Origin: Torpedo marmorata
Taxonomy: Eukaryota
Length of the DNA stretch: 64,000 bases
NCBI GenBank assembly: GCA_977017645.1
Contig: OZ360230.1
Coordinates: forward strand, 32,736,001 to 32,800,000
Reading direction: 5' to 3'
In this document: positions 1 through 63,219 of the stretch, piece after piece
Layout: the number at the start of each line of letters is the position of its first letter
How positions within the stretch are numbered: position 1 is the stretch's first letter
Made by a program: the position numbers and the translations under genes
The notes under the pieces: generated by a model
The model's input: only the letters and a program-made list of their open reading frames with translations
Databases searched by the model: none
What the model was told of the DNA's origin: nothing

Positions 1-1
1 G

Positions 2-1125: not shown

Positions 1126-1197
1126 CTGTATATATGTTAGATGTGTTGTAGTGTTCACTTCACCCCGCTGGACTCTTTTTTTAAAAGGAGGGGTGAA

Positions 1198-1999: not shown

Positions 2000-4900
2000 T
2001 CTCAGAAACAAGCACGGCCACCACTGGCCCTTCTACCACTCCAGGCACAAGCAGCGAGACAACAGGTACAATCATGCACCATATACGTATCCACCGTTCG
2101 GTCTTCTCTCCCAGTCAATATTTCCTATTGATGCAAATTAAAAACAGTAGCAATGCCTGATGTTTAAAGCTGAAAAGATTCTTCATCATGGCTAAACACA
2201 GTTCCATTCTGTGATTCAATAAAAAATTGCACAGATAAAGCAGATTTAAGAAAAATAATCAGATGCCCAGCAAGATGAAAATCTAATTGTATATTTGTCC
2301 AGTCATGTCTCTACGTCAACTAACATAATGATTCGACAACAATACCTTTGCCATGTCTGTGACGAATTCAAATGTCAAAAGGGGCTTCACATTAAGAACT
2401 AAACATCAGGCTGCAGCGATTGGAGCCAAATATACAATTAATTAGTGTTCTATTTTTTATTTTCAAATTCTTTGCTGTCAGCTAAAATAATGTTGCCATT
2501 AAAATCTATTCAATGGCTTATCAAGGACTGATGCACAAGTAGGTAACTGTGTAAAGTTCACAATTTTGCCCAACTATTCATTCATCACTTGCTGTGACAT
2601 GGAACCTTCTTCACTTTGAAAATAATCAACAGTCACAAGGTATCCCTTGCAACATTGCTATTACACGAACTATTTGACATAAGAAAGGAAATAACATTAA
2701 TTCATTGTTACATCGTCTGTTTAAACCATGTATTAGAGCAGCTTGAACATGCTCTGATGTATTTTAACTAAATGCAATGTGTATCTATTTAAAGGAACTC
2801 TATCTACAACCACAGAAGGTAGTACCTCCTCAGTGGAAAGTACAACTTTCAACTTTTCAACAACAGAGCCAACATCAACGTTGACAGGTAACATTAATGG
2901 GCACCGAGTCTTTGTATGTTGGCAGGAATGAGTTACAAATTGTAAAAATCTACCTCCAATTAGATGTATTATTGGAGTATTGTCCAAGGCTGCATGTCAT
3001 CAGAAAGGTTAAACTGTTCAAAGTCATTCCCGTATGGAAATTCTGTAGTGCGAAATGTTCTGATCAATATAAATTATGTGGATATTAATGCTCAGGGGGC
3101 TTAGGTTGCATCCCTGCGTGATGAATTCCATGTGAAGTCGTATACTTCAGAGCAGTCACTTCAACAGGATGGAATGAATTGAGGGATTAACGATAAACAT
3201 TCATTGTACAAGTACAAGAAAATATTCCAATCAATCTTAAAAACTAGCAATCAACTGAATGGTGACTCCTATTTGACAGGATGTCACACTTTATTTTCAA
3301 TTATTGGTAACCATTTCTTCTTCTCAGTTTCATTTCCCTGTCAGAAATGTAAGTGCTCCGTTGTATAATAAGCTGTTTCATTACATCCAGAGAGTCAACT
3401 TGACTTTAACATCAGCACGTTTTGTCTTCATTTTCAGTATCAGAACAAAGCACGACCACCCCGGCTCCTTCAACCACCTCTGCTACAAGTAGTGAAACAG
3501 CAGGTAGATTTATACATCAAAAGTATCAATACAATACAATGCAAATATAACAGTGACTTTTTAGGGGCTTCCAGATAGACGTGTGAATATACGGGGAAAA
3601 ACGAGCTGAGTAACATTGCAATCACTAGGGATTTTGGAAAATTAGGCATATCAGGTTTATCGCCAACATTATGAGACCTGGGTCCGATTCCGGTGCAGTT
3701 CTGTTCTATTGTCCAGGTTCCCCACAGTCATGTATTCTCTCAATTCAAGTGATGATTGGAGATGCTTGATAAATTTCTATTCAGATTTCTGAATTGCTGA
3801 AAAAATCATGTTATCTTCATAGTTCCATGCACTGAATCAGTGAACTATTCCGTAGATATGGCGTATTAGAGCAAAGATTTTTTTCTTAAAAATAACCATT
3901 GGTCTTGCAAGGTTAGACCACGTGTGAATTTGCATTTTTTATGTCTACACATTATAAAATCTATCTATTAAAATAAAAATGGCTTTGCCGTTGCTGTGAA
4001 GCATTCAAATAACAACATTGCCCTGCTCACTCAAATAACCAAACAGATTTTCAACATAATCAAATGAATATTAAGCTGTAGTCACTGCTGTCATATATGC
4101 ATTCACTTTCTGGCTCTAATATCCTTTTTCAAACACATTCTTCTCTTGTAAAATCCAGATACTTTTGAAATCTAACAAATAATTCATCAATGGATAACCA
4201 ACAAATCAATATCCATGCCAAGTCTACAACTTTTACCTTTAACTATTCATTGATATTTCATGGACGTTTCTTCAAGATAAATAAACATGCAGTTCCATGA
4301 CATCAGTTGCTAACTATGTTATTACATTCTAAAATACTTGGCATAAGAAAGGAAATGAAAGTAAATTGAATAGAGATCTGACTTCCAGGATCGTTGAATC
4401 TAAGTCTAGAACATAGAAGCTAGAACATAGAACAATTCAGCACAGTACAGGCCCTTCGGCCCTCGATGTTGTGCTGACCCACATATTCCTTCCTAAAAAA
4501 AAAGCACTAAACCCTCCCTACCCCATAACCCACTATTTTCCTTTCATCCAAGTGTCTGTCTAAGAGTCTCTTAAATTCCCCCAATGTTTCAGCCTCCACC
4601 ACCATCCCCGGCAAGGCATTCCAGGCACCCATAACTCTCTGTGTAAATAAACCTACCCCTGATGTCTCCCCTAACGTGGACAATGTGGACAGGCTTTTAT
4701 CATTTAAAGTGGGGAAGATTCAAACAAGGGGGCATGGATTGAGATTGAAGGGGTAAAAGTTTAGAGGAAACATGAGGGGGAATTTCTTCACTCAGAGGTT
4801 GGTGGGAGGGTGGAACGACCTTCCGGCCAAAGTGGCAGATGCAGGTTCAATTTCAATTTTTAAGGAAAAGTTGGATAGGTATATGGACGAGAGAGGTTCG

Positions 4901-5914
4901 GAGGGTTATGGGCCAGGTGCGGGTCAGTGGGACGAGTTGGGAGAAGGTGTTCGGCACGGACTAGAAGGGCCGAACCGGCCTGTTTCTGTGCTGTAAGTGT
5001 TATATGGTTATATGGTTATATAAACCTCCCTCCCTTAACTTTGTACATATGTCCTCTGGTGTTTGCTGATCCTGCCCTGGGAAATAGGTGCTGGCTCTCC
5101 ACCCTATCTATGCCTCTCATAAACTTGTAGGCCTCTATCAAGTCTCCTCTCATCCTTTTACGCTCTAAAGAAAAAAATCCCAGCTCTGCTAACCTTGCCT
5201 CATAAGACTTGTTTCCCAATCCAGCCAACATCCTGGTAAATTTCCTCTGCACCCTCTCCATTGCTTCCACATCCTTCCTATAATTGGGTGACCAGACTGA
5301 ACAAAATACTCTTAAGTGTGTTCTTACCAAAGATTTGTAGAGTTGCAACACAACCTCTCTACTCCTGAATTCAATCCCCCTATTAATGAATCCCAGCATC
5401 CCATAGGTCTTTTTAACTATCCTGTCAACCTGTGCGGTGACCTTGAGGGATGTATGGATTTTCACCCCAAGGTCCATCTGTTCATCCACACTCTGAATGA
5501 ACCGACCATTAACCCTCTACTCAGCCTTCTGGTTTGTCCTTACAAAATGCATCACCTCTCACTTATCTGCATTGAAATACATCTGCTACGTTTCTGCCCA
5601 ACTCTGAATCCTGTCTATATCCTCTTGTAACCTTCGACAACCTTCAGCTCCATCCACAACTCCTCCAACCTTCGTGTCATCCGCAAACTTACTGACCCAT
5701 CCTTCCGCCTCTTCATCCAGGTCATTTATAAAAAAAAACAGAGCAGTGGTTCCAGAACAGATCTAATAGCAGCTTTCCATGCCTCTATGTATTTTAACAA
5801 TAATGTTTCACATATTTCAAGGAACTACATCTGTGAAAACAGAACGAATTAACTCCACAGAGCAAATTACATCTTTGACCACTTCTACAACAGAGTCAAC
5901 ATCATTTGTCACAG
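2000..5914 (+). CDS. Mucin unit 1 exons: A 2000-2065, B 2795-2887, C 3438-3503, D 5822-5914
   Basis: ttttcag/TCTCAG..ACAG/gtac; tttaaag/GAACTC..ACAG/gtaac; ttttcag/TATCAG..GCAG/gtag; tttcaag/GAACTA..ACAG/gtaac. Most divergent unit. Confidence 0.85.
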
Positions 5915-26900: not shown

Positions 26901-29900
26901 AGGAATTTACTGGGAAATTAATCCTCAAGTGTCAGGTGGGAAAATCAGTGTTTAATAAATACATTTTTCAACTTCAAAAACCAAAAGTTGATTGAAATGA
27001 TCATGCAGATTTCTTCGCATTCACTTATACCTGATGCCATTTTTTGCTGAGGCAAAATGGGTAAGCTTTTGGTGCATATTACTAAGAACAAATTTCAACC
27101 ATCGCTCGAGGCTGACAGTTATCAACCTCATGTTGATCCTGACTCTAATTTGTCAGGATGCAACATATAATGTTCAATACTGGCTTAGATTTTATTTTCC
27201 TTAATTTCATGCTTGCCTCTGTAATTTAACTGCATTATCATATAATAAGAAATTTTATTGTATCCAGATAATTGTTGCCTTTAACATCCATGCATGCCTG
27301 ACTTTATTTTCAGTCTCAGAAACAAGCACGGCCACCACTGCCCCTTCTACCACTCCAGGCACAAGCAGCGAGACAACAGGTACAATCATGCACCATAAAC
27401 GTATCCACCGTTCGGTCTTCTCTACCAGTCAATATTTCCTCTTGATGCAAATGAAAAACAGTAGCGATGCCTGATGTTTAAAGCTGAAAAGATTCTTCAT
27501 CACGGCAAAACACAGTTCCATTCAGTGATTCAATGAAAAATGGCACAGATAAAGCATATTTGCAACAGCAGGTTTAAGAAAAATAATCAGATGCCCAGCA
27601 AGATGAAAATCTAACAGTAAATTTGTCTTGTCGTGTCTCTACATAAACTAACGTAATGATTCGAGAACAATACCTTTGCCATGTCTGTGACGAATTCAAA
27701 TGTCAAAAGGGGCTTCACATCAAGCACTAAACATCAGACTGCAGTGATTGGTGCCAGATACACAATCATTTACACGCTCTATTTTTTATTTTCAAATTCC
27801 TTGCAGTCAGCTAAAGTAATGTTGCCATTAAAATCTATTCAATGGTTTATCAAGGACTGACGCACAAGTAGGTAACGGTGAAAAGTTCACAATTTTCCCC
27901 AACTATTCACTCATCACTTGCTGTGACATGGAACCTTCTTCACTTCGAAAATAATCAACAGTCACAAGGTATCCCTTGCAACATTGCTATTACACAAACT
28001 ATTTGTCATAAGAAAGGAAATAAAATTAATTCACTGTTACATCGTCTGTTTAAACCATGTATTAGAGCAGCTTGAACATGCTCTGATGTATTTTAACTAA
28101 ATTCAATGTGTATCAATTTAAAGGATCTCTATCTACAACGACAGAAGGAAGTACCTCCTCAGTGGAAAGTACGACTTTCAGCTCTTCAACAACAGAGCCA
28201 ACATCAACGTCAATAGGTAACATCAATGGGCACCGAGGAGTTGTATGTTGGCAGGGATGAGTTACAAATTGTAAAAATATACCTCCAATCAAATATGTAC
28301 TTGGTGTATTGTCCAAGGCTGCATGTCAACAGAAAGGTTAAACTGTTCAAAGTCATTCCCGTATGGAAATTCTGTGGTGTCAAATGTTCTGATCAATATA
28401 AATTATGTACATATTATTGCTCAGGGGGGCATAGGTTGCAACCCTGCGTGATGAATTCCATGTGAAGTCGTATATTTCAGAGCAGTCACTTCAACAGGAT
28501 GGAATGAATTGAGGGATTAACGATAATCATTCATTGTACAAGTACGAGAAAATATTCCAATCAATCTTAAAAACTAGCAATTATCTGAATGGTGACTCGT
28601 ATTGGACAGGATGTCACACTTTATTTTCAAATATTGGTTACCATTTCTTCTTCTCAGTTTCATTTCCCCTTCAAAAATGTAAGTTCTCTGTTGTTTAATA
28701 AGCTGTTTCATTATATCCAGAGAGTCAACTTGACTTTAACATCAGCACGTTTTGTCTTCATTTTCAGTATCAGAACAAAGCACGACCACCTTGGCTCCTT
28801 CAACCACCTCTGCTACAAGTAGTGAAACAACAGGTAGATTTATACATCAAAAGTATCAATACAATACATTGCAGATATGACAGTGGCTTTTTAGGGGCTT
28901 CCATATAGACGCGTGAATATACAGGGAAAAACGGGTTAAGTAACATTGAAAACACGAGAGATTTTGGAAATTTAGGCATCAGGTAAATTGCTGACATAAT
29001 GAGACCTTGGGCCGATTCCGGTGCAGTTCTGTTCTATTGTCCAGGTTCCCCACAGTCATGTATTCTCTCAATTCAAGTGATGATTGGAGATGCTTGATAA
29101 ATTTCTCTTCAGATTTCTGAACTGTTGATGAAAATCATGTTCACTTTATAGTTCCATGCACTGAATCATTGAACTATTCCGTAGATATGGCATATTTGAG
29201 AAAAAAAAATTCTTAAAAATAACCATTGGTCTTGCAATACGAGAACACGTGCGAATTTGCATTTTTTATGCCTCCACATTATAAAATCTAACTATTAAAA
29301 TAAAAATGGCTTTGCCGTCACTGTAAAGCGTTCAAATAACAAAATTGCCCAGCTCACTCAAATTACCAAGAAGAATTCAACCTAATCAAATGAATATTAA
29401 GCTGTAGTCACTGCTGTCATATATGCATTCACTTTCTGGCTCTAACATCCTTTTCAAACACATTCAACTCATGTAAAATCCAGATAATTTTGAAATCTAA
29501 CAAATAATTCATCAATGGACAACCAACAAATAAATATCGATGCCAAGTCTACAACTTTTACCATTAACTATTCATTGATATTTCATGGAGGTTCCCTTCA
29601 AGATAAACATGCAGTTCCATGACATCAGTTGCCAACTACGTTATTGCATTCTGAAATACTTGGCATCAGAAAGGAAATGAAAGTAATTTGAATAGAGATC
29701 TGACTTCCAGGATTGTTGAATCTCTGTCTAGAACATAGAAGCTAGAACATAGAACAATTCAGCACAGTACAGGCCATTCGGCCCTTGATGTTGTGGCAAC
29801 CCACATATTCCTAAATAAATAAAAAATACTAAACCCTCCCTACCCTATAACCCTCTATTTCTCTTTCATCCATGTGTCTGTCCAAGTGTCTTTTAAATTG

Positions 29901-32900
29901 CTCCAATGGTTCAACATCCACCACCATTCCCTGCAATGCATTCCAGGCACCCACAACTCTCTGTGTAAAAAACGTACCCCTGATGTCTCCCCTAAACTTC
30001 CCTCCATTAACTTTGTACATATGTCCTCTGGTGTTTGCAGATCCTGATCTGGGAAACAGGTGCTGGCTGTCCACCCTATCTATGCCTCTCATAATCTTGT
30101 AGACCTCCATCGTCTCCTCTCATCCTTCTGCACTCCAAAGAGAAAGGTCCCAGCTCTGCTAACCTTGCCTCAATAGACTTGTTTCCCAATCCAGCCAACA
30201 ATCTGGTAAATTTCCGCTGCACCCTCTCCATAGCTTCCACATATTTCCTATAATCAGGTGACCAGAACTGAACACAATACTTACCAAAGATTTGTGGAGT
30301 TGCAACATGACCTCTCTACTCCTGAATTCAATCCCCCTAATAATGAATACCAACATCACATATGCCTTTTTAAATATCCTGTCAACCTGTGCGGCGACCT
30401 TGAGGGATGTATGGATTTGTACCGCATGGTCCAAATGTTCATCCACACTCTTAAATATCCAACCATTAACCCTGTACTCAGCCTTCTGGTTTGTCCTTCC
30501 AAAATGCATCACTTCACAATTATCCGGATTGAAATCCATCTGCCACTTTTCTGCCCAACTCTGCATCCTGTCAAAATCCTCTTGTAAACTTCGACAACCT
30601 TCAGCTCCATCTGCAACTCCTCCAACCTTCGTGTCATCCGCAAACTTACTGACCCATCCTTCCGCCTCTTCATCCAGGTCATTTATAAAAATCACAAAGA
30701 GCAGGGGTCCCAGAACAGATCTAATAGCAGCTTTCCATGCCTCTATGTATTTTAACAATCATTTTCACATATTTCAAGGAACTACATCTGTGACAACAGA
30801 ACCAAGCACCTCCACAGAGCAAATTACATCTTTGACAACTTCTACAACAGAGTCAACATCATTTGTCACAGGTAACATCAATAATAACCTGCTACTCCAA
30901 TTGTTGGCATGGAATACATTGTAAGAGTAAAAATATTGTCTCGTTCACGTAATCTCTTGTGGAGCTATGCAAGACGAGAGATCTGACTGTCATCAGAAAG
31001 GATCATCAAGTCAGGCTCATGCCCCGATGAACTGACAGTTGCATCCAAGTTTTGATTGAAGGAATTTACTGGGAAATTAATCCTCAAGTGTCAGGTGGGA
31101 AAATCAGTGTTTAATAAATACATTTTTCAACTTCAGAAACCAAAATTTGATTGAAATGATCATGCAGATTTCTTCGCATTCACTTATACCTGATGCCATT
31201 TTTTGCTGAGGCAAAATGGGTAAGCTTTTGGTGCATATTACTAAGAACAAATTTCAACCATCGCTCGAGGCTGACAGTTATCAACCTCATGTTGATCCTG
31301 ACTCTAATTTGTCAGGATGCAACATATAATGTTCAATACTGGCTTAGATTTTATTTTCCTTAATTTCATGCTTGCCTCTGTAATTTAACTGCATTATCAT
31401 ATAATAAGAAATTTTATTGTATCCAGATAATTGTTGCCTTTAACATCCATGCATGCCTGACTTTATTTTCAGTCTCAGAAACAAGCACGGCCACCACTGC
31501 CCCTTCTACCACTCCAGGCACAAGCAGCGAGACAACAGGTACAATCATGCACCATAAACGTATCCACCGTTCGGTCTTCTCTACCAGTCAATATTTCCTC
31601 TTGATGCAAATGAAAAACAGTAGCGATGCCTGATGTTTAAAGCTGAAAAGATTCTTCATCACGGCAAAACACAGTTCCATTCAGTGATTCAATGAAAAAT
31701 GGCACAGATAAAGCATATTTGCAACAGCAGGTTTAAGAAAAATAATCAGATGCCCAGCAAGATGAAAATCTAACAGTAAATTTGTCTTGTCGTGTCTCTA
31801 CATAAACTAACGTAATGATTCGAGAACAATACCTTTGCCATGTCTGTGACGAATTCAAATGTCAAAAGGGGCTTCACATCAAGCACTAAACATCAGACTG
31901 CAGTGATTGGTGCCAGATACACAATCATTTACACGCTCTATTTTTTATTTTCAAATTCCTTGCAGTCAGCTAAAGTAATGTTGCCATTAAAATCTATTCA
32001 ATGGTTTATCAAGGACTGACGCACAATTAGGTAAAGGTAAAAAGTTCATAATTTTCCACAACTATTCACTCATCACTTGCTGTGACATGGAACCTTCTTC
32101 ACTTCGAAAATAATCAATAGTCACAAGGTATCCCTTGCAACATTGCTATTAAACAAACTATTTGTCATAAGAAAGGAAATAAAATTACTTCACTGTTACA
32201 TCGTCTGTTTAAACCATGTATTAGAGCAGCTTGAACATGCTCTGATGTATGTTAACTAAATTCAATGTGTATCAATTTAAAGGATCTCTATCTACAACGA
32301 CAGAAGGAAGTACCTCGTCAGTGGAAACTACGACTTTCAGCTCATCAACAACAGAGCCAACATCAACGTCAATAGGTAACATCAATGGGCACAGAGGCTT
32401 TGTATGTTGGCAGGGATGAGTTACAAATTGTAAAAATATACCTCCAATCAAATATGTGCTTGGTGTATTGTCCAAGGCTGCATGTCATCAGAAAAGTTAA
32501 ACTGTTCAAAGTCATTCCCGTATGGAAATTCTGTGGTGTGAAATGTTCTGATCAATATAAATTATGTACATATTATTGCTCAGGGGGGCATAGGTTGCAT
32601 CCCTGCGTGATGAATTCCATGTGAAGTCGTATATTTCAGAGCAGTCACTTCAACAGGATGGAATGAATTGAGGGATTAACGATAATCATTCATTGTACAA
32701 GTACGAGAAAATATTCCAATCAATCTTAAAAACTAGCAATTATCTGAATGGTGACTCGTATTGGACAGGATGTCACACTTTATTTTCAAATATTGGTTAC
32801 CATTTCTTCTTCTCAGTTTCATTTCCCCTTCAAAAATGTAAGTGCTCTGTTGTATAATAAGCTGTTTCATTACATCCAGAGAGTCAACTTGACTTTAACA

Positions 32901-35900: not shown

Positions 35901-38900
35901 AATCAGATGCCCAGCAAGATGAAAATCTAACTGTAAATTTGTCTTGTAGTGTCTCTAAGTAAACTAATGTAATGATTCGACAACAATACCTTTGCCATGT
36001 CTGTGATGAATTCAAATGTCAAAAGGGGCTTCACATTATGCACTAAACATCAGACTGCAGTGATTGGTGCCAAATATACAATCATTTACACGCTCTATTT
36101 TTTATTTTCAAAATCCTTGCAGTCAGCTAAAGTAATGTTGCTATTAAAATCTATTCAATGGTTTATCAACGACGGACGCACAAGTAGGTAACGGTGAAAA
36201 GTTCACAATTTTGCCCAACTATTCACTCATCACTTGCAGTGACATGGAACCTTCTTCACTTCGAAAATAATCAACAGTCACAAGGAATCCCTTGCAACAT
36301 TGCTATTACACAAACTATTTGTCATAAGAAAGGAAATAAAATTAATTCACTATTACATTATCTGTTTAAACCATGTATTAGATCAGCTTGAACATACTCT
36401 GTTTTATTTTAACTAAATGCAATGTGTATCTATTTAAAGGAACTCTATCTTCAACGACAGAAGGAAGTACCTCGTCAGTGGAAAGTACAACTTTCAGCTC
36501 TTCAACAACAGAGCCAACATCAACGTCAACAGGTAACATCAATGGGCACCGAGACTTTGTATGTTGGCAGGGATGAGTTACAAATTGTTAAAATATACCT
36601 CCAATCAAATATGTGATTGGTCTATTGTCCAAGGCTGCATGTCATCAGAAAGGTTAAACCTTTCAAAGTCATTCCCGTATGGAAATTCTGTTGTGTGAAA
36701 TGTTCTGATCAATATAAATTATGTACATATTAATGCTCAGGGGGGCATAGGTTGCATCCCTGCGTGATGAATTCCATGTTAAGTCGTATAGTTCAGAGCA
36801 GTTACTTCAACAGGATGGAATGAATTGAGGGATTAACGATAAACATTCATTGTACAAGTACGAGAAAATATTCCAATCAATCTTAAAAACTAGCAATCAT
36901 CTGAATGGTGACTCGTATTTGACAGGATGTCACACTTTATTTTCAATTATTTTTAACCATTTCTTCTCAGTTTCATTTCCCCTTCAAAAATGTAAGTGCT
37001 CTGTTGTATAATAAGCTGTTTCATTACATCCAGAGAGTCAACTTGACTTTAACATCAGCACGTTTTGTTTTCATTTTCAGTATCAGAACAAAGCACGACC
37101 ACCCTGGCTCCTTCAACTACAAGTAGTGAAACAACAGGTAGATTTCTACATCAAAAGTATCAATACAATACATTGCAGATATGACAGTGGCATTTTAGGG
37201 GCTTTCAGATAGACGCGTGAATATACGGGGAAAAACGGGTTAAGTAACATTGAAAACACGAGAGATTTTGGAAATTTAGGCATCAGGTAAATTGCTGACA
37301 TAATGAGACCTTGGGCCGATTCCGGTACAGTTCTGTTCTATTGTCCAGGTTCCCTACAGTCATGTATTCTCTCAATTCAAGTGATGATTGGAGATGCTTG
37401 ATAAATTTCTCTTCAGATTTCTGAACTGCTGAAGAAAACCATGTTCACTTTATAGTTCCATGCACTGAATCAGTGAACTATTCCGTAGATATGGCATATT
37501 TGAGAAAAAAAAATTCTTAAAAATAACCATTGGTCTTGCAAGACGAGACCACGTGTGAATTTGCATTTTTTATGTCTCCACATTATAAAATCTATCTACT
37601 AAAATAAAAATGGCTTTGCCGTCACTGTAAAGCGTTCAAATAACAAAATTGCCCAGCTCACTCAAATTACCAAGCAGAATTCAACCTAATCAAATGAATA
37701 TTAAGCTGTAGTCACTGCTGTCATATATGCATTCACTTTCTGGCTCTAACATCCTTTTCTCACACATTCAACTCATGTAAAATCCAGATAATTTTGAAAT
37801 CTAACAAATAATTCATCAATGGACAACCAACAAATAAATATCAATGCCAATTCTACAACTTTTACCATTAACTATTCATTGATATTTCATGGAGGTTCCC
37901 TTCAAGATAAACATGCAGTTCCATGACATCAGTTCCCAACTATGTTATTGCATTCTGAAATACTTGGCATCGGAAAGGAAATGCAATTAATTTGAATAGA
38001 GATCTGACTTCCAGGATCGTTGAATCTAAGTCGAGAACATATAAGCTAGAAAATAGCACAATTCAGCACATTACAGGCCTTTCGGCCTTTGATGTTGTGT
38101 CGACCTACATATTCCTTCCTAAACTAAAGTACTAAACCCTCCCTACCCTATAACCCTTTATTTCTCTTTAATCCATGTGTCTGTCTAAGTGTCTTTTAAA
38201 TTCCCGCAATGTTTCAACATCCACCACCATTCCCGGCAATGCATTCCAGGCACCCACAACTCTCTGTGTAAAAAACCTACCACTGATGTCTCCCCTAAAC
38301 TTCCCTCCATTAACTTTGTACATATGTCCTCTGGTGTTTGCAGATCCTGATCTGGGAAACAGGTGCTGGCTGTCCACCCTATCTATGCCTCTCATAATCT
38401 TGTAGACCTCCATCAAGTCTCCTCTCATCCTTCTGCACTCCAAAGAGAAAGGTCCCAGCTCTGCTAACCTTGCCTCAACAGACTTCTTTCCCAATCCAGC
38501 CAACATCCTGGTAAATTTCCGCTGCACCCTCTCCATAGCTTCCACATATTTCCTATAAATAGGTGACCAGAACTGAACACAATACTTACCAAAGATTTGT
38601 GGAGTTGCAACATGACCTCTCTACTCCTGAATTAAATCCCCCTATTAATGAATCCCAGCATCACATATACCTTTTTAAATATCCTGTCAACCTGTGCGGC
38701 GACCTTGAGGGATGTATGGACTTGTACCGCATGGTCCAAATGTTCATCCACACTCTTAAATATCCGACCATTAACCCTGAACTCAACATTCAGGTTTGTC
38801 CTTCCAAAATGCATCACCTCACACTTATCCGGATTGAAATCCATCTGCCACTTTTCTGCCCAACTCAGCATCCTTTCAAAATCCTCTTGAAAACTTCGAC

Positions 38901-41900
38901 AACACTCAGCTCCATCTAACACTCCTCCAACCTTCGTGTCATCCGCAAACATACTGACCCATCCTTCCGCCTCTTCATCCAGATCATTTATAAAAATCAC
39001 AAAGAGCAGGGGTCCCAGAACAGATCTAACAGCAGCTTTCCATGCCTCTATGTATTTTAACAATCATTTTCACATATTTCAAGGAACTACATCTGTGACA
39101 ACAGAACCAAGCACCTCCACCGAGCAAATTACATCTTTGACCACTTCTACAACAGAGTCAACATCATTTGTCACAGGTAACATCAATCATAACCTGCTAC
39201 TCCAATTGTTGGCATGGAATACATTGTAAGATTAAAAATATTGTCTCGTTCACGTAATCTCTTGTGGAGCTCTGCAAGGCAAGAGACCTGACTGTCATCA
39301 GAAAGGATCATCAAGTAAGGCTCATGCCCCGATGAAATGACAGTTGCATCCAAGTTTTGATTGAAGGAAATTACTGGCAAAAATTAATCCGCAAGTGTCA
39401 GTATGGAAAATCAGTGTTTAATAAATACATTTTTCAACTTCAGAAACCAAAATTTGATTGAAATGATCATGCAGATTTCTTCGCATTCACTTTAGCCTGT
39501 TGCCATTTTTTGCTGAGGCAAAATGGGTAAGCTTTTGGTGCATATTACTAAGAACAAATTTCAACCATCGCTCGAGGCTGACAGTTATCAACCTCATGTT
39601 GATCCTGACTCTAATTTGTCAGGATGTAACATATATTGTTCAATACTGGCTTAGAATTTATTTTCCTTAATTTCATGCTTACCTCTGTAATTTAACAGTA
39701 TTATCATATGTTAAGAAATTTTATTGTATCCAGATAAATGTTTCCTTTAACTTCAACGCATGCCTGATCTTATTTTCAGTCTCAGAAACAAGCACGGCCA
39801 TCACTGGCCCTTCTACCACTCCAGGCACAAGCAGCGAGACAACAGGTACAATCATGCACCATATAGGTATCCACCGTTCGGTCTTCTCTCCCAGTCAATA
39901 TTTCCTCTTGATGCAAATGAAAAACAGTAGCGATGCCTGATGTTTAAAGCTGAAAAGATTCTTCATCATGGCTAAGCACAGTTCCATTCAGTGATTCAAT
40001 GAAAAATTGCACAAATAAAGCATATTTGCAACAGCAGATTTAAGAAAAATAATCAGATGCCCAGCAAGATGAAAATCTAACTGTAAATTTGTCTTGTCTT
40101 GTCTCTACATAAACTAACATAATGATTTGACAACAATACCTTTGCCATGTCTGTGAAGAATTCAAATGTCAAAAGGGGCTTCACATAAAGCACTAAACAT
40201 CAGACTGCAGTGATTGATGCCAAATACACAATCATTTACACGCTCTATTTTTTATTTTCAAAATCCTTGCAGTCAGCTAAAGTAATGTTGCCATTAAAAT
40301 CTATTCAATGGTTTATCAAGGACTGATGCACAAGTAGGTAACTGTGAAAAGTTCACAATTTTGCCCAACTATTCACTCATCACTTGCTGTGACATGGAAC
40401 CTTCTTCACTTCGAAAATAATCAACAGTCACAAAGTATGCCTTGCAACATTGCTATTACACAAACTATTTGTCATAAGAAAGGAAATAAAATTAATTCAC
40501 TGTTACATCATCTGTTTAAACCATGTATTAGAGCAGCTTGAACATACTCTGATGTATTTTAACTAAATGTAATGTGTATCAATTTAAAGGAACTCTATCT
40601 ACAACGACAGAAGGAAGTACATCATCAGTGGAAAGTACAACTTTCAGCTCTTCAACAACAGAGCCAACATCAACGTCAACAGGTAACATCAATGGGCACC
40701 GAGGTTTTGTATGTTGGCAGGGATGAGTTACAAATTGTAAAAATATACCTCCAATCAAATATGTGCTTGGTGTATTGTCCAAGGCTGCATGTCATCAGAA
40801 AGGTTAAACTGTTCAAAGTCATTCCCGTATGGAAATTCTGTTGTGTGAAATGTTCTGATCAATATAAATTATGTACATATTAATGCTCAGGGGGGCATAG
40901 GTTGCATCCCTGCGTGATGAATTCCATGTTAAGTCGTATACTTCAGAGCAGTTACTTCAACAGGATGGAATGAATGGAAGGATTAATGATAAACATTCAT
41001 TGTACAAGTTCGAGAAAATATTCCAATCAATCTTAAAAACTAGCAATTATCTGAATGGTGACTCGTATTTGACAGGATGTCTCACTTTATTTTCAATTAT
41101 TGCTAACCATGTCTTCTTCTCAGTATCATTTCCCCTTCAAAAATGTAAGTGCTCTGTTGTATAATAAGCTGTTTCATTACATCCAGAGAGTCAACTTGAC
41201 TTTAACATCAGCACGTTTTGTCTTCATTTTCAGTATCAGAACAAAGCACGACCACCCTGGCTCCTTCAACTACCTCGGCAACAAGTAGTGAAACAACAGG
41301 TAGATTTATACACCAAAAGTATCAATACAATACATTGCAGATATGACAGTGGCTTTTTAGGGGCTTCCAGATAGAAGCGTGAATATACGGGGAAAAATGG
41401 GTTAAGTAACAATGAAAGCAGAAGAGATTTTGTAAATTTAGGCATCAGGTAAATTGCTGACATAATGAGACCTTGGGCCGATTCCGGTGCAGTTCTGTTC
41501 TATTGTCCAGGTTCCCCACAGTCATGTATTCTCTCAATTCAAGTGATGATTGGAGATGCTTGATAAATTTCTCTTCAGATTTCTGAACTGATGAAGAAAA
41601 TCATTTTCACTTTATAGTTCCATGCACTGAATCAGTGAACTATTGCGTAGATATGGCATATTTGAGAAAAACAAATCCTTAAAAATAACCATTGGTCTTG
41701 TAAGACGAGAACACGTGTGAATTTGCATTTTTTTATGCCTCCACATTATAAAATCTAACTATTAAAATAAAAATGGCTTTGCCGTCACTGTAAAGCGTTC
41801 AAATAACAAAATTGCCCAGCACACTCAAATAACTAAGCAGAATACAAGCTAATCAAATGAATATTAAGCTGTAGTCACTGCTGTCATATATGCATTCACT

Positions 41901-53900: not shown

Positions 53901-56900
53901 AAACACGAGAGAATTTGTAAATTTAGGCATCAGGTAAATTGCTGACATAATGAGACCTTGGGCCGATTCCGGTGCAGTTCTGTTCTATTGTCCAGGTTCC
54001 CCACAGTCATGTATTCTCTCAATTCAAGTGATGATTGGAGATGCTTGATAAATTTCTCTTCAGATTTCTGAACTGCTGAAGAAAATCATTTTCACTTTAT
54101 AGTTCCATGCAATGAATCAGTGAACTATTCCGTAGATATGGCATATTTGAGAAAAAAAAATTCTTAAAAATAACCATTGGTCTTGCAAGACGAGACCACG
54201 TGTGAATTTGCATTTTTTATGCCTCCACATTATAAAATCTAACTATTAAAATAAAAATGGCTTTGCCGTCACAGTAAAGCGTTCAAATAACAAAATTGCC
54301 CAGCTCACTCAAATAACCAAGCAGAATTTCAACCTAATCAAATGAATATTAAGCTGTAGTCACTGCTGTCATATATGCATTCACTTTCTGGCTCTAATAT
54401 CCTTTTCAAACACATTCTACTCTTGTAAGATGCAGATAGTTTTGAAATCTAACAAATAATTCAATAATGGTTAACCAACAAATAAATATCTATGCCAATT
54501 CTACAACTTTTAACTTCAACTATTCGTTGATATTTCATGGAGGTTTCTTCAAGATAAATAATCATGCAGTTCCATGACATCAGTTGCCAACTACGTTATT
54601 GCATTCTGAAATACTTGGCATCAGAAAGGAAATGAAAGTAATTTGAATAGAGATCTGACTTCCAGGATCATTGAAACAATGTCTGCAACATAGAAGCTAG
54701 AACATAGAACAATTCAGCACAGTACAGGCCCTTCGGCCTTTGATGTTGTGCCGACCCACATTTGACAGATTAGAGTGGAATTATTTATTTAAAGTATTGG
54801 AAAAATTTGGTTTTGGAATTACATTTATTAATTGGATTAAAACTATATATAAGGAACCCTCTGCTAGGGTGGTTACAAATGGACAAATTTCTTCAAAGTT
54901 TTTGTTGACTAGGTCGACACGACAAGGATGTCCGTTATCACCCGCATTATTTGTTTTAGCAATTGAACCTTTGGCGGAATTAATTAGACAAGATATTAAG
55001 ATTGCGGGTATTAAAGTTGGAAATGAAGAACATAAGATTAATCTATTTGCAGATGATGTATTGATATATATGACAAAACCTATTACTTCTTTAATACATT
55101 TGGATGTTATATTGAGGGAATATGGGGAGATTTCTGGTTATAAAATCAATTCTGATAAAAGTGAAATTATGGCATTAACACAAGGCGATTATAGTAAATG
55201 GAAAGAAATTACACAATTTAAATGGTCAAACGAAGGAATTAAATATTTAGGTATAAAGATAGATACTAAACTAGCCAACTTATATAAATTAAATTATTTA
55301 CCATTATTTGCGAAAATTAAAAAAGATTTGGAAAGTTGGAAGGATTTATCTATAACTTTATTAGGAAGGGTAAATTGTATTAAAATGAATATCTTTCCAA
55401 TGATTCAATATCTTTTTCAATCAATTCCATATGAAATTCCTCAAAAATCTTTTAAAGATTTAAATTTTATTATTAGGAAGTTTTTGTGGAAAGGTAAATT
55501 GGCTAGAGTAGCTATGGAAAATTTAACTTGGAATTATGAATTGGGTGGATTACAACTGCCTAATTTTCAAAATTATTATAAAGCAGCCCAATTATGGTTT
55601 ATTAATGAATTGTTGGATTTAACAAAAGATTCGGCGTGGATCCGAATAGAATTAAATAATATAGGAGAAGATTTGAAGGAAGAAGTTATTTATAAATGGA
55701 ATTCTAAATTAATATTGATAAGTGGTAAAAATTCTCCTATTTTTAAACATTTATTAGAAATATGGAATAGATTGGATAAAGAGATAGGAGCGAAAGGTTT
55801 AATTTCGCCAAATATGCCTTTATATCAAAATAGACTTATTCCATTTGCTTTTAATAATCAGTTATTTAAAATTTGGTTTCAAAAGGGAATTAAGAATGTA
55901 AATGATTGTTTTGAAGCTGGTAAATTTATTACTTTTCAAAGAATGAAAGATAAATTTAATATATTAAATAATACATATTTTGCCTATTTTCAAATTAAAG
56001 CTTTTTTAGTTGAAAAACTGGGTCATAATTTGGTTTTACCTCGACAAAGTGAATTTGAATTATTAGTTATAAATGGAGGTGTAAATAAATTTATTTCTCA
56101 AATGTATAAATTATTACAGAGGAAAATGCCCAAGGTAGCAATTCATAAATCAAGATTAAAATGGGAATCAGATTTGAATGTAACTATAGAAGAAAAACAT
56201 TGGAAAGAATTATGTAAGTTAAGTATGACTAAAATTATTAATGTCAGATATAGATTAGTGCAATATAATTTTTTTCATCAATTATATTTAACACCTAAAA
56301 AATTAAAGAAGTTTAATCCAGCGTTATCAGATATGTGTTTTAGATGTAATAGGGAAGAAGGTTCTTTTGTACATTCTACTTGGTTTTGTCCAAAGATTCA
56401 GGATTTTTGGTTTAAGGTTAAGGAATTTTTAGATAAAGTATTAAGAAATATACTCCCAATGGATCCGATGATATTTTTATTTGCAGATATTAAAAGAATT
56501 AGTATTATGATGAATTTAAATATGTATCAAATTGAGTTTTTGAGAATTGCTTTAGCTGTTGCTAAGAAATGTATTGCTATCACTTGGAAATCTGATGTAG
56601 ATTTAGGTTTAGAAAGGTGGCATGCAGAACTTCGTTCTTGTATACCACTTGAAAAAATTACTTATAATTTACGTAACAAATATCATTTCTTTTCGAAAAT
56701 ATGGAGCCCATATATAAAAGCGGTCGACTTAAAAATAAAAATTTGAAGATCTCTGAACATTGGATCAGGCTGGTGAACCTAATTTCCACAAAAATTTTAG
56801 TTTATAGTTATTCTTATTGTAGATTGACATTCTCCTTAGTTTATCTTTTTCTTTTCTTTATTTTATTTTATTTTATAGATTAGTACGGGTGGGGGGGTTA

Positions 56901-59900
56901 GGGTGGGGAGGGTGGTTGGGAGGGAGAAAATATATCACATGTATTTTGATAATTTTGCGATTTATACAATGTATTTTGTGATTTAAAATTTTAAATAAAA
57001 TATTCAAAAAAAAAAAAAAAAAAAAAAAGTACTAAATCCTCCCTAACCTATAACCATCTATTTCTCTTTCATCCATGTGTCTCTCTAAGTGTCTTTTAAA
57101 TTCCCCCAATGTTTCAACATCCACCACCATCCCCGGCAATGCATTCCAGGCACCCACAATTCTCTGTGTAAAAAACCTACCCCTGATGTTTCCCCTAAAC
57201 TTCCCTCCATTAACTTTGTACATATGTCCTATGGTGTTTGCAGATCCTGCCCTGGGAAACAGGTGCTGGCTGTCCACCCTATCTATGCCTCTCATAATCT
57301 TGTAGATCTCCATCAAGTCTCCTTTCATCCTTCTGCACTCCAAAGAGAAAGGTCCCAGCTCTGCTAACCTTGCCTCAACAGACTTGTTTCCCAATCCAGC
57401 CAACATCCTGGTAAATTTCCGCTGCACCCTCTCCATAGCTTCCACATATTTCCTATAATCAGGTGACCAGAACTGAACACAATACTTACAAATGATTTGT
57501 GGAGTTGCAACATGACCTCTCTACTCCTGAATTCAATCCCCCTAATAATGAATCCCAGCATCACATATGCCTTTTTAAATATCCTGTCAACCTGTGTGGC
57601 GACCTTGAGGGATATATGGATTTGTACCGCATGGTCCAAATGTTCATCCACACTCTTAAATATCCAACCATTAACCCTGTATTCAGCATTCTGGTTTGTC
57701 CTTCCAAAATGCATCACCTCACACTTATCCGGATTGAAATCCATCTGCCACTTTTCTGCCCAACTCAGCATCCTGTCAAAATCCTCTTGTAAACTTCGAC
57801 AACCTTCAGCTCCATCTACAACTCCTCCAACCTTCGTGTCATCTGCAAACTTACTGACCCATCCGTCCGCCTCTTCATCCATGTCATTTATAAAAATCAC
57901 AAAGAGCAGGGGTCCCAGAACAGATCTAATAGCAGTTTTCCATGCCTCTATGTATTTTAACAATCATTTTCACATATTTCAAGGAACTACATCTGTGACA
58001 ACAGAACCAAGCACCTCCACCGAGCAAATTACATCTTTGACAACTTCTACAACAGAGTCAACATCATTTGTCACAGGTAACATCAATCATAACCTGCTAC
58101 TCCAATTGTTGGCATGGAATACATTGTAAGAGTAAAAATATTGTCTCGTTCACGTAATCTCTTGTGGAGCTATGCAAGGCGAGAGATCTGACTGTCATCA
58201 GAAAGGATCATCGAGTCAGGCTCATGCCCCGATGAAATGACAGTTGCATCCAAGTTTTGATTGAAGGAAATTACTGGCAAAAATTAATCCTCAAGTGTCA
58301 GTTTGGAAAATCAGTGTTTAATAAATACATATTTTAAATTCAAAAACCAAAAGTTGATTGAAATGATCATGCAGATTTCTTCGCGTTCACTTCAAACTGT
58401 TGCCATTTTTTGCTGAGGCAAAATGGGTAAGCTTTTGGTGCATATTACTAAGAACAAATTTCAACCATTGCTCGAGGCTGACAGTTATCAACCTCATGTT
58501 GATCCTGACTCTAATTTGTCAGGATGCTACGTATAATGTTCAATACTGGCTTAGAATTTATTTTCCTTAATTTCATGCTTGCCTCTGTAATTTAACTGCA
58601 TTATCATATATTAAGAAATTTTATTGTATCCAGATAATTGTTGCCTTTAACATCAACGCATGCCTGACTTATTTTCAGTCTCAGAAACGAGCACGTCCAC
58701 CACTGCCCCTTCTACCACTCCAGGCACAAGCAGCGAGACAACAGGTACAATCATGCACCATATACGTATCCACCGTTCGGTCTTCTCTCCCAGTCAATAA
58801 TTCCTCTTGATGCAAATTAAAAACAGTAGGGATGCCTGATGTTTAAAGCTGAAAAGATTCTTCATCATGGTTAAACACAGTTCCATTCTGTGATTCAATG
58901 AAAAATTGCACAGATAAAGCATATTTGCAACAGCAGATTTAAGAAAAATAATCTGATGCCAGTGCAAGATAAAAATCTAACTAAAAATTTGTCTTGTCGT
59001 GTCTCTACATAAACTAACGTAATGATTCGACAACAATACCTTTGCCATGTCTGTGACGAATTCAAATGTCAAAAGGGGCATCACATCAAGCACTAACCAT
59101 CAGACTGCAGTGATTGGTGCCAAATACACAATCATTTACACACTCTATTTTTTATTTTCAAAATCCTTGCAGTCAGCTTAAGTAATGTTGCCATTAAAAT
59201 CTATTCAATGGTTTATCAATGACTGACGCACAAGTAGGTAACGGTGAAAAGTTCACAATTTTGCCCAACTATTCACTCATCACTTGCTGTGACATGGAAC
59301 CTTCTTCACTTCGAAAATAATCAACAGTCACAAGGTATCCCTTGCAACATTGTTATTACACAAACTATTTGTCATAAGAAAGGAAATAAAATTAATTCAC
59401 TGTTACATCGTCTGTTTAAACCATGTATTAGAGCAGCTTGAACATACTCTGATGTATTTTAACTAAATTCAATGTGTATCAATTTAAAGGATCTCTATCT
59501 ACAACGACAGAGGGAAGTACCTCCTCAGTGGAAAGTACGACTTTCAGCTCATCAACAACAGAGCCAACTTCAACGTCAATAGGTAACATCAATGGGCACC
59601 GAGGCATTGTATGTTGGCAGGGATGAGTTACAAATTGTAAAAATATACCTCCAATCAAATATGTGCTTGGTGTATTGTCCAAGGCTGCATGTCATCAGTA
59701 AGGTTAAACTGTTCAAAGTCATTCCCGTATGGAAATTCTGTGGTGTGAAATGTTCTGATCAATATAAATTATGTACATATTAATGCTCAGGGGGGCATAG
59801 GTTGCATCCCTGCGTGATGAATTCCATGTTAAGTCGTATACTTCAGAGCAGTCACTTCAACAGGATGGAATGAATTGAGGGATTAACGATAAACATTCAT

Positions 59901-62900
59901 TGTACAAGTACGAGAAAATATTCCAATCAATCTTAAAAACTAGCAATTATCTGAATGGTGACTCGTATTGGACAGGATGTCACACTTTATTTTCAAATAT
60001 TGGTTACCATTTCTTCTTCTCAGTTTCATTTCCCCTTCAAAAATGTAAGTGCTCCGTTGTATAATAAGCTGTTTCATTACATCCAGAGAGTCAACTTGAC
60101 TTTAACATCAGCACGTTTTGTCTTCATTTTCAGTATCAGAACAAAGCACGACCACCTTGGCTCCTTCAACCACCTCTGCTACAAGTAGTGAAACAACAGG
60201 TAGATTTATACATCAAAAGTATCAATACAATACATTGCAGATATGACAGTGGCTTTTTAGGGGCTTCCAGATAGAAGCGTGAATATACGGGGAAAAACGG
60301 GCTGAGTAACATTAAAAGCACGAGAGATTTTGGAAATTTTGGCATCAGGTAAATCTTTGACATAATGAGACCTTGGGCCGATTCCGGTGCAGTTCTGTTC
60401 TATTGTCCAGGTTCCCCACAGTCATGTATTCTCTCAATTCAAGTGATGATTGGAGATGCTTGATAAATTTCTCTTCAGATTTCTGAACTGCTGAAGAAAA
60501 TCAAGTTCACTTTATAGTTCCATGCACTGAATCAGTGAACTATTCCGTAGATATGGCATATTTTAGAAAAAAATACTTAAAAATAACCATTGGTCTTGCA
60601 AGACGAGAACACGTGTGAATTTGCATTTTTTATGCCTCCACATTATAAAATCTAACTATTAAAATAAAAATGTCTTTGCCGTCACTGTAAAGCGTTCAAA
60701 TAACAAAATTGCCCAGCTCACTCAAATAACCAAGCAGAATTCAACCGAATCAAATGAATATTAAGCTGTAGTCACTGCTGTCATATATGCATTCACTTTC
60801 TGGCTCTAACATCCTTTTCAAACACATTCAACTCATGTAAAATCCAGATAATTTTGAAATCTAACAAATAATTCATCAATGGACAACCAACAAATAAATA
60901 TCGATGCCAATTCTACAACATTTACCTTTAACTATTCATTGATATTTCATGGAGGTTCCCTTCAAGATAAACATGCAGTTCCATGACATCAGTTGCCAAC
61001 TATTTTATTGCATTCTGAAATACTTGGCATCAGAAAGGAAATGAAAGTAATTTGAATAGAGATCTGATGTCCAGGATCGTTGAATCTAAGTCTAGAACAG
61101 AGAAGCTAGAACATGGAACAATTCAGCACAGTACAGGCCCTTCGGCCCTCGATGTTGTGCCGACCCACATATTCCTTCCTAAAATAAAAGTACTAAACCC
61201 TCCCTACCCTATAACCCTCTATTTCTCTTTCATCCATGTGTCTGTCTAAGTGTCTCTTAAATTCCCCCAATGTTTCAGCCTCCACCACCATCCCCGGCAA
61301 TGCATTCCAGGCACTCACAACTCTCTGTGTAAAAAACCTACCCCTGATGTCTCCCCTAAACTTCGCTCCATTAACTTTGTACATATGTCCTCTGGTGTTT
61401 GCAGGTCCTGCCCTATCTATTCCTCTCATAATCTTGTAGACCTCCATCAAGTCTCCTTTCATCCTTCTGCACTCCAAAGAGAAAGGTCCCAGCTCTGCTA
61501 ACCTTGCCTCAACAGACTTGTTTCCCAATCCAGCCAACATCCTGGTAAATTTCCGCTGCACCCTCTCCATAGCTTCCACATATTTTCCTTAATTTCATGC
61601 TTGCCTCTGTAATTTAACTGCATTATCGTATAATAAGAAATTTTATTGTATCCAGATAATTGTTACCTTTAACATCAACGCATGCCTGAATTCATTTTCA
61701 GTCTCAGAAACAAGCACGGCCACAACTGCCCCTTCTACCACTCCAGGCACAAGCAGCGAGACAACAGGTACAATCATGCACCATATACGTATCCACCGTT
61801 CGGTCTTCTCTCCCAGTCAATATTTCCTCTTGATGCAAATTAAAAACAGTAGCGATGCCTGATGTTTAAAGCTTGAAAGATTCTTCTTCATGGCTAAACA
61901 CAGTTCCATTCTGTGATTCAATGAAAAATTGCACAGATTAAGCATATTTGCGACAGCAGATTTAAGAAAAATAATCAGATGCCCAGCAAGATGAAAATCT
62001 AACTGTAAATTTGTCTTGTCGTGTCTCTACATAAACTAACGTAATGATTCAACAACAATACCTTTGCCATGTGTGTGACGAATTCAAATGTCAAAAGGGG
62101 CTTCACAACAAGAACTAAACATCAGACTGCAGTGATTGGTGCCAAATACACAATCATTTACACGCTCTATTTTATATTTTCAAAATCCTTGCAGTCAGCT
62201 GAAGTAATGTTGCCATTAAAATCTATTCAATGGTTTAGCAAGGACTGATGCACAAGTAAGTAACAGTGAAAAGTTCACAATTTTGCCCAACTATTCACTC
62301 ATCACTTGCTGTGACATGGAACCTTCCTCACTTCGAAAATAATCAACAGTCACAAGGTATCCCTTGCAACATTGCTATTACACAAACTATTTGTCATAAG
62401 AAAGGAAATAAAATTAATTCACTGTTACATCGTCTGTTTAAACCATGTATTAGAGCAGCTTGAACATACTCTGATGTATTTTAACTAAATGCAATGTGTA
62501 TCAATTTAAAGGAACACTATCTACAACGACAGAAGGAAGTACCTCGTCAGTGGAAAGTACAACTTTCAGCTCTTCAACAACAGAGCCAACATCAACGTCA
62601 ACAGGTAACATCAATGGGCACCGAGGCTTTGTATGTTGGCAGGGATGAGTTACAAATTGTAAAAATATACCTCAAATCAAATATGTGCTTGGTGTATTGT
62701 CCAAACTGCATGTCATCAGAAAGGTTAAACTGTTCAAGGTCATTCCCGTATGGAAATTCTGTGGTGTGAAATGTTCTGATCAATATAAATTATGTACATA
62801 TTAATGCTCAGGGGGGCATAGGTTGCATCCCTACGTGATGAATTCCATGTTAAGTCGTATACTTCAGAGCAGTCACTTCAACAGGATGGAATGAATTGAG

Positions 62901-63219: not shown

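What the first reader, a model, noticed from the sequence alone, without database searches (positions are those of the whole stretch)
2000..63219. Hidden giant mucin-like gene whose PTS domain is a genomic array of 4-exon cassettes
Seen: 58 tiny exons (66/93/66/93 nt) with conserved AG/GT in a 4.16-kb repeat. They splice to a continuous ~1525-aa chain of 106-aa modules, ~66% Ser/Thr, ~10 Glu per module, with no Cys and almost no Lys/Arg. Only ~7% of the array is coding and no track ORF reports it properly. Known: MUC1, MUC2, MUC4, MUC5AC and MUC5B encode their repeat domains mainly in one large exon, whereas multi-exon PTS regions are known from MUC19-type, some avian and amphibian integumentary mucins. 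Inference: a probably unannotated or misannotated lineage-specific, acidic, heavily O-glycosylated mucin whose length evolves by multi-kb unequal crossover.
Basis: partly seen in the sequence, partly recalled or inferred. Interest (0 to 1): 0.85.

Follow-up and report, generated by a model that had tools for sequence, protein, structure and literature searches.

The report
Multi-exon mucin repeat array, likely shark/ray
This stretch of an animal genome, probably a shark or ray, holds fifteen near-identical 4-kb blocks whose tiny exons splice into a long serine/threonine-rich, mucus-type protein segment; similar designs are known in chicken, frog and blood-fluke mucins, and the gene's identity cannot be read from this window.

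Summary
There are 58 AG/GT-bounded phase-1 exons (15 A, 15 B, 15 C, 13 D) in 15 tandem ~4.16-kb units. They splice in silico to 1,524 stop-free codons (64% Ser+Thr, 9% Glu, 5% Pro, no Cys). Corrections: one C exon is 57 nt, unit 14 has lost D, and both gene ends lie outside the window. Exons are NOT more conserved than introns base for base. But no stop, frameshift or splice-dinucleotide change occurs where about 6 are expected (P about 0.002, rough), and all four exon classes share a branch-point-like TTAAC. The unit arose from an older two-exon cassette (A~C, B~D), captured a CR1 fragment, and is still turned over by recombination (mosaic units, a 99.65% identical 8.3-kb dimer). Best reading: the interior of a live gene encoding a long O-glycosylated mucin-type domain, probably in a cartilaginous fish. 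Family, expression and annotation status are untested; two searches with exon peptides and one Atlas look-up found nothing. Multi-exon PTS domains (chicken Muc13 and MUC2, Xenopus Otogl) and exon-plus-intron tandem repeats (SmPoMuc, LPA KIV-2) are published, so this is a new variant of a known kind.

The parts
2000..63219 (+). Tandem array of 15 four-exon cassettes (A-B-C-D), interior of a predicted mucin-domain gene; probably continues beyond both window ends
   Evidence: 58 exons; 1,524 stop-free codons; A starts at 2000, 6515, 10676, 14834, 18995, 23155, 27314, 31473, 35635, 39780, 43940, 48104, 52266, 58679, 61702
27314..27379 (+). Exon A (66 nt, phase 1-1), example from unit 7; 15 copies
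   Evidence: AG/GT in 15 of 15, donor CAG|GTACAA in 15 of 15; TTAAC at -20..-36 in 15 of 15
28124..28216 (+). Exon B (93 nt, phase 1-1), unit 7; 15 copies; weak pyrimidine tract, AAG acceptor
   Evidence: TTAAC 15 of 15
28768..28833 (+). Exon C (66 nt, phase 1-1), unit 7; 15 copies; paralogue of A (74% nt, 76% aa)
   Evidence: TTAAC 14 of 15
30779..30871 (+). Exon D (93 nt, phase 1-1), unit 7; 13 copies; paralogue of B (69% nt, 47% aa)
   Evidence: TTAAC 13 of 13
37081..37137 (+). Shortened C exon of unit 9 (57 nt): the only exonic indel in the array, in frame
60200..61701 (+). Fused C-to-A intron of unit 14: about 1.14 kb deleted, removing exon D whole; frame kept
   Evidence: intron 1,502 nt; junction near 61,580 with a short shared motif
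29729..30721 (-). 5'-truncated, decayed CR1-type LINE in the C-D intron (unit 7 shown); amplified with the cassette, seen in 14 of 14 C introns long enough to reach it
   Evidence: RVT_1; stops and frame changes in many copies; bounds; named relatives from Chiloscyllium and Mobula
54762..57028 (+). Young 5'-truncated L1-type LINE inserted into the CR1 of unit 13; open 681-codon frame, poly(A) signal at 56994 and A-tail
1..1432 (+). 3' end of an LTR retrotransposon (integrase in broken frames, polypurine tract, 235-nt LTR 1198-1432) inserted about 35 nt downstream of a D-exon donor
   Evidence: rve and Integrase_H2C2; junction matches the D-A intron of unit 1; LTR bounds
4675..5020 (+). Extra ~350-nt CR1-like 3' fragment in the opposite orientation, inside the CR1 of unit 1 only
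63858..64000 (-). 3' tail of a second L1-family copy (79% identical to the unit-13 L1 tail), interrupting intron C-D of unit 15 at the window edge

Best explanation
This is the interior of a functional vertebrate (probably cartilaginous-fish) gene for a large extracellular glycoprotein. Its mucin-type domain is built from symmetric phase-1 mini-exons. SHOWN: splicing A-B-C-D in order gives 106-aa acidic Ser/Thr modules, at least 1,524 aa; any exon can be skipped or lost without a frameshift, since all end in G and junction codons are only Gly, Val or Ala; an older two-exon cassette (66+93 nt) doubled, one half captured a CR1, and the 4.16-kb unit was amplified and mixed by recombination. INFERRED: the transcript is spliced in vivo; the chain is densely O-glycosylated into an extended, negatively charged bottle-brush acting as mucus or glycocalyx; selection acts on frame, splice signals and composition, not on exact residues; copy number varies between alleles by unequal crossover. 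Family not determined. My split, given a live gene: membrane mucin of Muc13/SEA/HEG type 0.45, secreted or gel-forming mucin 0.3, stalk of another surface protein 0.25.
For: 0 stops in 1,524 codons, 58 of 58 AG/GT. Disabling lesions: 0 observed vs about 1.9 stops and 2.4 splice-dinucleotide alleles expected from the intron mutation spectrum, plus about 2 frameshifts (24 non-3n indels in 3,858 intron columns scaled to 318). Sliding pseudo-exon control gives P=0.015 for no frameshift and no splice change, about 0.002 with stops. The CR1 in the same units carries stops and frame changes. TTAAC at -20..-36 in 57 of 58 acceptors; background 2.6% per 16-nt window. Paralogous exons keep exact lengths (0 gaps in 159 nt under two strict penalty sets) while paralogous introns have 43-45 gaps in about 1,255 aligned columns; A/C pS 0.50 vs pN 0.16. 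Both structural losses (9 nt in one C, whole D) keep frame. Recombination: neighbouring-site incompatibility 0.095 vs 0.203 shuffled, p=0.001; units 6, 7 and 8 are mosaics.
Against: Exon p-distance (0.025-0.056) is not below intron p-distance (0.033-0.040). Non-synonymous alleles 32 vs 34.4 expected; the dN/dS-like ratio of 0.57 (p=0.03) comes from a synonymous excess, 24 vs 14.8. B/D shows pN 0.35 above pS 0.26, and pooled A/C+B/D is not significant, Fisher p=0.32. Each lesion class alone is not significant (stops P=0.15, splice P=0.09). Intron indels partly sit in homopolymer runs that exons lack, so 0.002 is optimistic. Gap-free runs of 118 and 98 columns occur in the paralogous intron alignment, and lax penalties put 2 compensating gaps in B/D. 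B and D acceptors are weak. No homologue found. No transcript evidence. Two sense-strand retroelements with AATAAA lie in introns.
Confidence: 0.8

Rival explanations
1. A recently inactivated mucin gene (pseudogene): the exons were real, but the locus is no longer translated and now drifts as a macrosatellite that collects retroelements.
For: Non-synonymous rate equals intron rate. Four insertions private to single units or window ends, two of them sense-strand with poly(A) signals. One exon lost. No protein hit.
Against: No disabling lesion over 3-8% unit divergence, P about 0.002. Both deletions keep frame. AATAAA already occurs 5 times per normal unit, so extra ones are weak evidence. All insertions are intronic, but that is uninformative as introns are 92% of the array.
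Confidence: 0.12
2. A non-coding macrosatellite built around a CR1 fragment; the 'exons' are chance AC-rich patches whose apparent conservation is only recent amplification.
For: Whole-unit identity 95-99.7% including introns. Exons no more conserved than introns.
Against: The four S/T-richest windows of a unit coincide with AG/GT-bounded, 3n-length, same-phase segments sharing TTAAC and AG|GTA. A/C and B/D keep exact length across about 30% divergence. Thr uses all four codons and Ser both codon boxes.
Confidence: 0.03
3. An acidic Fam20C-phosphorylated mineralisation protein (SCPP/SPARC-L type) rather than an O-glycosylated mucin.
For: 143 Glu, net charge -137, 58 S-x-E motifs; elasmobranchs have an acidic scpp gene (PMC9122587, passages).
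Against: All 57 introns here are phase 1, whereas phase 0 is the usual scpp phase and holds for the first three coding introns of elasmobranch scpp. No Asp and no Tyr. Thr outnumbers Ser; T-x-E (54) is as common as S-x-E (58), as composition alone would give.
Confidence: 0.03
4. Assembly artefact: collapsed or falsely duplicated copies inflate the array.
For: Units 2-3 and 4-5 are 99.65% identical over 8.3 kb.
Against: That pair still differs by 27 substitutions and 2 gaps; most unit pairs differ by 3-4.6% and carry private insertions or deletions. An artefact could change the count by a unit or two, not create the structure.
Confidence: 0.02

Closest known systems
Chicken Muc13 (and zebrafish Muc13 homologue), PMC1552070; abstract and passages read
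   Same: PTS domain encoded by many near-identical small exons; Cys-free; authors propose length control by recombination and by splicing, and call it possibly the ancestral vertebrate design.
   Different: There one exon is one 20-aa repeat, at least 12 repeats. Here four different exons form a 106-aa module inside a 4.16-kb unit, at least 15 units. SEA and TM domains could not be looked for here.
Chicken MUC2 central region, PMC3549977; passages
   Same: PTS repeats spread over exons 32-45 in repeated genomic segments that defeat assembly.
   Different: 69-aa unit with 22% Pro and interspersed CysD domains; here 5% Pro, 9% Glu and no Cys in 1,524 aa.
Xenopus tropicalis Otogl skin mucin, PMC5789918; passages
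   Same: Multi-exonic central mucin domain in an aquatic vertebrate.
   Different: 34 PTS repeats alongside 39 Cys-rich repeats; none here.
Schistosoma mansoni SmPoMuc, PMC2576457; passages
   Same: Mucin repeat encoded as tandem exon-plus-intron genomic units (about 1 kb, up to 20, introns over 93% identical) under concerted evolution.
   Different: One 27-bp exon per unit, multigene family, flatworm; here four exons per 4.16-kb unit with an embedded LINE.
Human LPA KIV-2, PMC6314250; passages
   Same: Multi-kb, multi-exon intragenic tandem unit (5.6 kb, 2 exons, 1 to over 40 copies) that sets protein length.
   Different: Encodes folded kringles, not a low-complexity Ser/Thr domain.

Membership tests
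Mucin-type (PTS) domain | Long tandem repeat rich in Ser/Thr | tested here: met
   S+T 55-70% in 1,425 of 1,425 100-aa windows
Mucin-type (PTS) domain | Pro enrichment (5% threshold recalled from PTSpred, not found in the text read) | tested here: inconclusive
   Pro 4.8% overall; at least 5% in 961 of 1,425 windows, above 5% in 147
Mucin-type (PTS) domain | Dense O-GalNAc glycosylation | not testable with these tools
   Inferred from composition only
Mucin-type (PTS) domain | Secreted or membrane-bound (signal peptide) | not testable with these tools
   Gene ends outside the window; no further S/T-rich candidate exon in 2-1999 or 63220-63990
SEA-type membrane mucins (Muc13, MUC1/3/16/17) | SEA domain, transmembrane helix, cytoplasmic tail | not testable with these tools
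   Outside the window
SEA-type membrane mucins (Muc13 of chicken/fish) | PTS domain on many small near-identical exons without Cys | tested here: met
   vs PMC1552070; not unique to this family
Gel-forming mucins (Muc2/5/6/19, Otogl) | N-terminal VWD-C8-TIL units and C-terminal cystine knot | not testable with these tools
   Outside the window
Gel-forming mucins of Muc2/Muc5/Otogl type | CysD or Cys-rich domains interspersed in the PTS region | tested here: not met
   0 Cys in 1,524 aa; only exons resembling the four seeds were spliced, and CysD-free stretches exist in such mucins, so this lowers but does not exclude
SCPP / SPARC-L acidic proteins | Mainly phase-0 introns | tested here: not met
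   57 of 57 introns phase 1 vs PMC9122587
SCPP / SPARC-L acidic proteins | Asp/Glu-rich with S-x-E sites, Tyr-rich region | tested here: inconclusive
   58 S-x-E, but no Asp or Tyr
Structured RNA array (snoRNA, tRNA, miRNA host repeat) | Rfam family or tRNA gene in the unit | tested here: not met
   0 Rfam matches at gathering score; 0 tRNA genes

The most novel reading that the evidence does not exclude
An orphan giant mucin of sharks or rays, unrelated at its ends to Muc13, Muc19 or other named mucins, whose domain length and charge are tuned at two levels: between alleles by 4-8 kb unequal crossover, and within a cell by combinatorial skipping of frame-neutral cassette exons (B and D have weak acceptors). 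It would be a vertebrate counterpart of the SmPoMuc polymorphism system, invisible to six-frame PTS searches.
Probability: 0.15. Interest if true: 0.65.

Novelty: new variant of a known kind. Interest (0 to 1): 0.4.

Why it matters
If expressed, it supports the proposal (PMC1552070) that exon-split PTS domains are an old vertebrate design, extending it to a probable cartilaginous fish, and shows a nested history (two-exon cassette, four-exon unit, 8.3-kb dimer) dated by retroelement insertions. In practice, such domains are missed by six-frame PTS scans because each exon is only 21-30 codons, so mucin inventories of these animals may be incomplete. It also gives a ready test of splicing-based control of mucin length. 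It does not reveal a new mechanism.

Tried and rejected
Homologue searches for the mucin peptide: an alignment of 7 B/D exon translations with short intron-encoded flanks gave no hit at E up to 10 among 7,998 candidates, limited to proteins of 71-2,000 aa; phmmer with a 31-aa D peptide against 1.84 billion representatives gave 0 hits; ESM Atlas gave no usable hit; Pfam gave none for two 40-aa peptides. These are weak negatives, since short low-complexity queries are filtered and a giant protein would exceed the length cap. The spliced 106-aa module itself was not searched. Nucleotide conservation of exons over introns was tested and not found. The stop-free antisense frame of the spliced sequence was rejected as a by-product of codon composition. 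RNA genes: none. Tandem Repeats Finder sees only a 14-nt duplication at the CR1 tail and one 21-nt repeat, as its period limit is 500. The L1 protein search did not name the host: best named hits are teleost and amphibian elements at 29-41%. A sentence in PMC6314250 on mutation density compares exon 1 with exon 2, not exons with introns, so it was not used. Ten literature searches listed no paper on a chondrichthyan multi-exon PTS array; the library lacks most subscription journals and no supplements were read. No fold or complex was run, as the chain is low-complexity. Bacterial, phage and plasmid collections were not searched; viral and metagenome contigs were closed.

Full report
Observation. 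Exact 20-mers recur mostly at offsets of 4,157-4,164 and about 8,320 nt. Four seed exons taken from the first unit were scanned without gaps over both strands at 55% identity or more. This gave 58 hits, all on +: 15 A (66 nt), 15 B (93), 15 C (14 of 66, one of 57) and 13 D (93), each between AG and GT. D is missing in unit 14 through a deletion of about 1.14 kb and in unit 15 because the window ends. Joined in order they give 4,575 nt, 7.5% of the span, with one frame free of stops for 1,524 codons. The chain is 64.2% Ser+Thr, 9.4% Glu and 4.8% Pro, with 5 Lys, 1 Arg, no Cys or Asp, and 3 N-glycosylation sequons. All introns are phase 1; every exon ends in G, and all possible junction codons are Gly, Val or Ala. 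No ORF of 90 aa or more represents the chain.

Is it coding? Three lines favour it. First, in unit 7 the four best S/T windows over six frames are the four exons (0.67-0.76; next 0.43), and they sit between splice signals. Donors are AG|GTA in 58 of 58, and a branch-point-like TTAAC lies 20-36 nt upstream in 57 of 58 acceptors against a 2.6% background; these are really four, or two, independent origins, not 58. Second, no disabling lesion is seen. From the intron mutation spectrum about 1.9 stop alleles and 2.4 splice-dinucleotide alleles are expected, and about 2 frameshifts (24 non-3n indels in 3,858 intron columns, scaled to 318 exon columns). A sliding pseudo-exon control gives P=0.015, or about 0.002 with stops. 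The C-D intron control used 11 of 13 introns; units 1 and 13 were dropped for their large insertions. The CR1 fragment in the same units has stops and frame changes. Third, A and C, and B and D, are paralogues. They kept exact lengths, while the paralogous introns show 43-45 gaps in about 1,255 aligned columns at 62-66% identity; A/C has pS 0.50 and pN 0.16.

Evidence against. Base for base the exons are no more conserved than the introns (mean p 0.025-0.056 vs 0.033-0.040). Non-synonymous alleles number 32 against 34.4 expected; the ratio of 0.57 (p=0.03) reflects 24 synonymous alleles against 14.8 expected. B/D has pN above pS, and the pooled old comparison is not significant (p=0.32). No lesion class is significant alone. 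Homopolymer indels inflate the intron control, and long gap-free runs (118, 98 columns) do occur in the intron alignment. This fits selection on frame and composition rather than on residues, which is what mucin domains are reported to show (PMC9417175, passages), but it also leaves room for a recently dead gene. There is no transcript evidence and no homologue was found; these searches are weak for short low-complexity queries.

History of the array. A two-exon cassette (66+93 nt) doubled. A 5'-truncated CR1-type LINE entered the C-D intron (29729-30721 in unit 7) and was amplified with the 4.16-kb unit. Over the shared A-to-C part, unit pairs differ by up to 4.6%, and unit 1 by 7.3-8.0%. Units 2-3 and 4-5 form an 8.3-kb dimer at 99.65% identity with 27 substitutions. 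Among 11 full units (2-12), neighbouring informative sites are far more compatible than shuffled (0.095 vs 0.203, p=0.001), and units 6, 7 and 8 are mosaics of unit-2 and unit-3 types (p at most 0.0002). That shows recombination; unequal crossover and gene conversion are not separated. Later insertions are private: a CR1-like piece in unit 1, an L1-type element with an open 681-codon frame in unit 13, an L1 tail at the right edge, and an LTR element about 35 nt behind a D donor at the left edge. Both window ends therefore fall inside intronic insertions, and the array probably goes on; 1,524 aa is a minimum.

Host. Of 51 hits to the CR1 frame, the only named vertebrates are Chiloscyllium punctatum (66%) and Mobula hypostoma (58%); one hit carries a bacterial label, probably contamination (inference). 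Named L1 hits are mostly teleost and amphibian at 29-41%. A cartilaginous fish is likely, not proven.

Mechanism. Most likely the pre-mRNA is spliced through the mini-exons into a long acidic Ser/Thr chain that is O-glycosylated into an extended brush for mucus or glycocalyx (inferred from composition and general mucin biology). Symmetric phase-1 exons make every gain, loss or skip frame-neutral, which explains why multi-kb crossovers and the loss of one D are tolerated. Whether skipping is used in vivo is unknown; B and D have weak acceptors. Confidence in a live mucin-type domain is 0.8, a recent pseudogene 0.12, other readings 0.08. SCPP-type identity fails on intron phase. An RNA-gene array fails.

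Comparison with known systems. Chicken Muc13 has a PTS domain on multiple exons, one repeat per exon, with a zebrafish parallel and a proposal of splicing control (PMC1552070). Chicken MUC2 repeats span exons 32-45 (PMC3549977). Xenopus Otogl has a multi-exonic mucin domain (PMC5789918). SmPoMuc repeats are 1-kb exon-plus-intron units under concerted evolution (PMC2576457). LPA KIV-2 is a 5.6-kb two-exon unit in 1 to over 40 copies (PMC6314250). Human MUC3A/B show the usual single-exon design (PMC9578598). The ghost shark is reported to have Muc2, Muc5, two Muc6 and three Muc19 genes (PMC4948705), with no exon structure of PTS regions in the passages seen. PMC5100051, PMC3056801 and PMC2180178 were also seen as passages and added nothing decisive. 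All papers were read as keyword passages, with abstracts in part; no supplements. It works like these systems; membership of any named mucin family is untested because the terminal domains lie outside the window. Ten searches listed no paper on such an array in a cartilaginous fish, within a library that lacks most subscription journals.

Verdict. A real and well-formed structure, probably part of a live gene. The four-exon, LINE-carrying, nested cassette is a new variant of a known design.

Noticed in passing
window 54762-57028 (+): Young L1-type LINE with an uninterrupted 681-codon frame (RT end to C-terminus), about 29% GC, inserted at an A-run of the CR1 with loss of about 10 target bases; best database match only 57% identical, so possibly an undescribed active family.
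   Followed up: partly
window 63858-64000 (-): A second copy of the same L1 family, 79% identical at the 3' tail, so two subfamilies hit the array within 7 kb.
   Followed up: partly
window 1-1432 (+): LTR retrotransposon end (integrase split over three frames, 235-nt LTR with AATAAA) in sense orientation inside intron D-A; could cause premature polyadenylation of the host transcript.
   Followed up: partly
window 2000-6514: Unit 1 is about twice as diverged (7.3-8.0%) as the other units and holds two of the three N-glycosylation sequons and the only Arg; it may mark the edge of the homogenised zone, or be isolated by the adjacent insertion.
   Followed up: no
exon alignments A-D: Synonymous alleles exceed the intron-based expectation (24 vs 14.8, P=0.017), unexplained; could be homogenisation favouring introns or a mutation-model error.
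   Followed up: no
window 35635-39779: Unit 9 is 4,145 nt, with several small deletions including the only exonic indel.
   Followed up: no
exons A/C vs B/D: Weak local similarity between the 66-nt and 93-nt classes (scores 23-29), hinting at a still older single-exon ancestor; may be composition only.
   Followed up: partly
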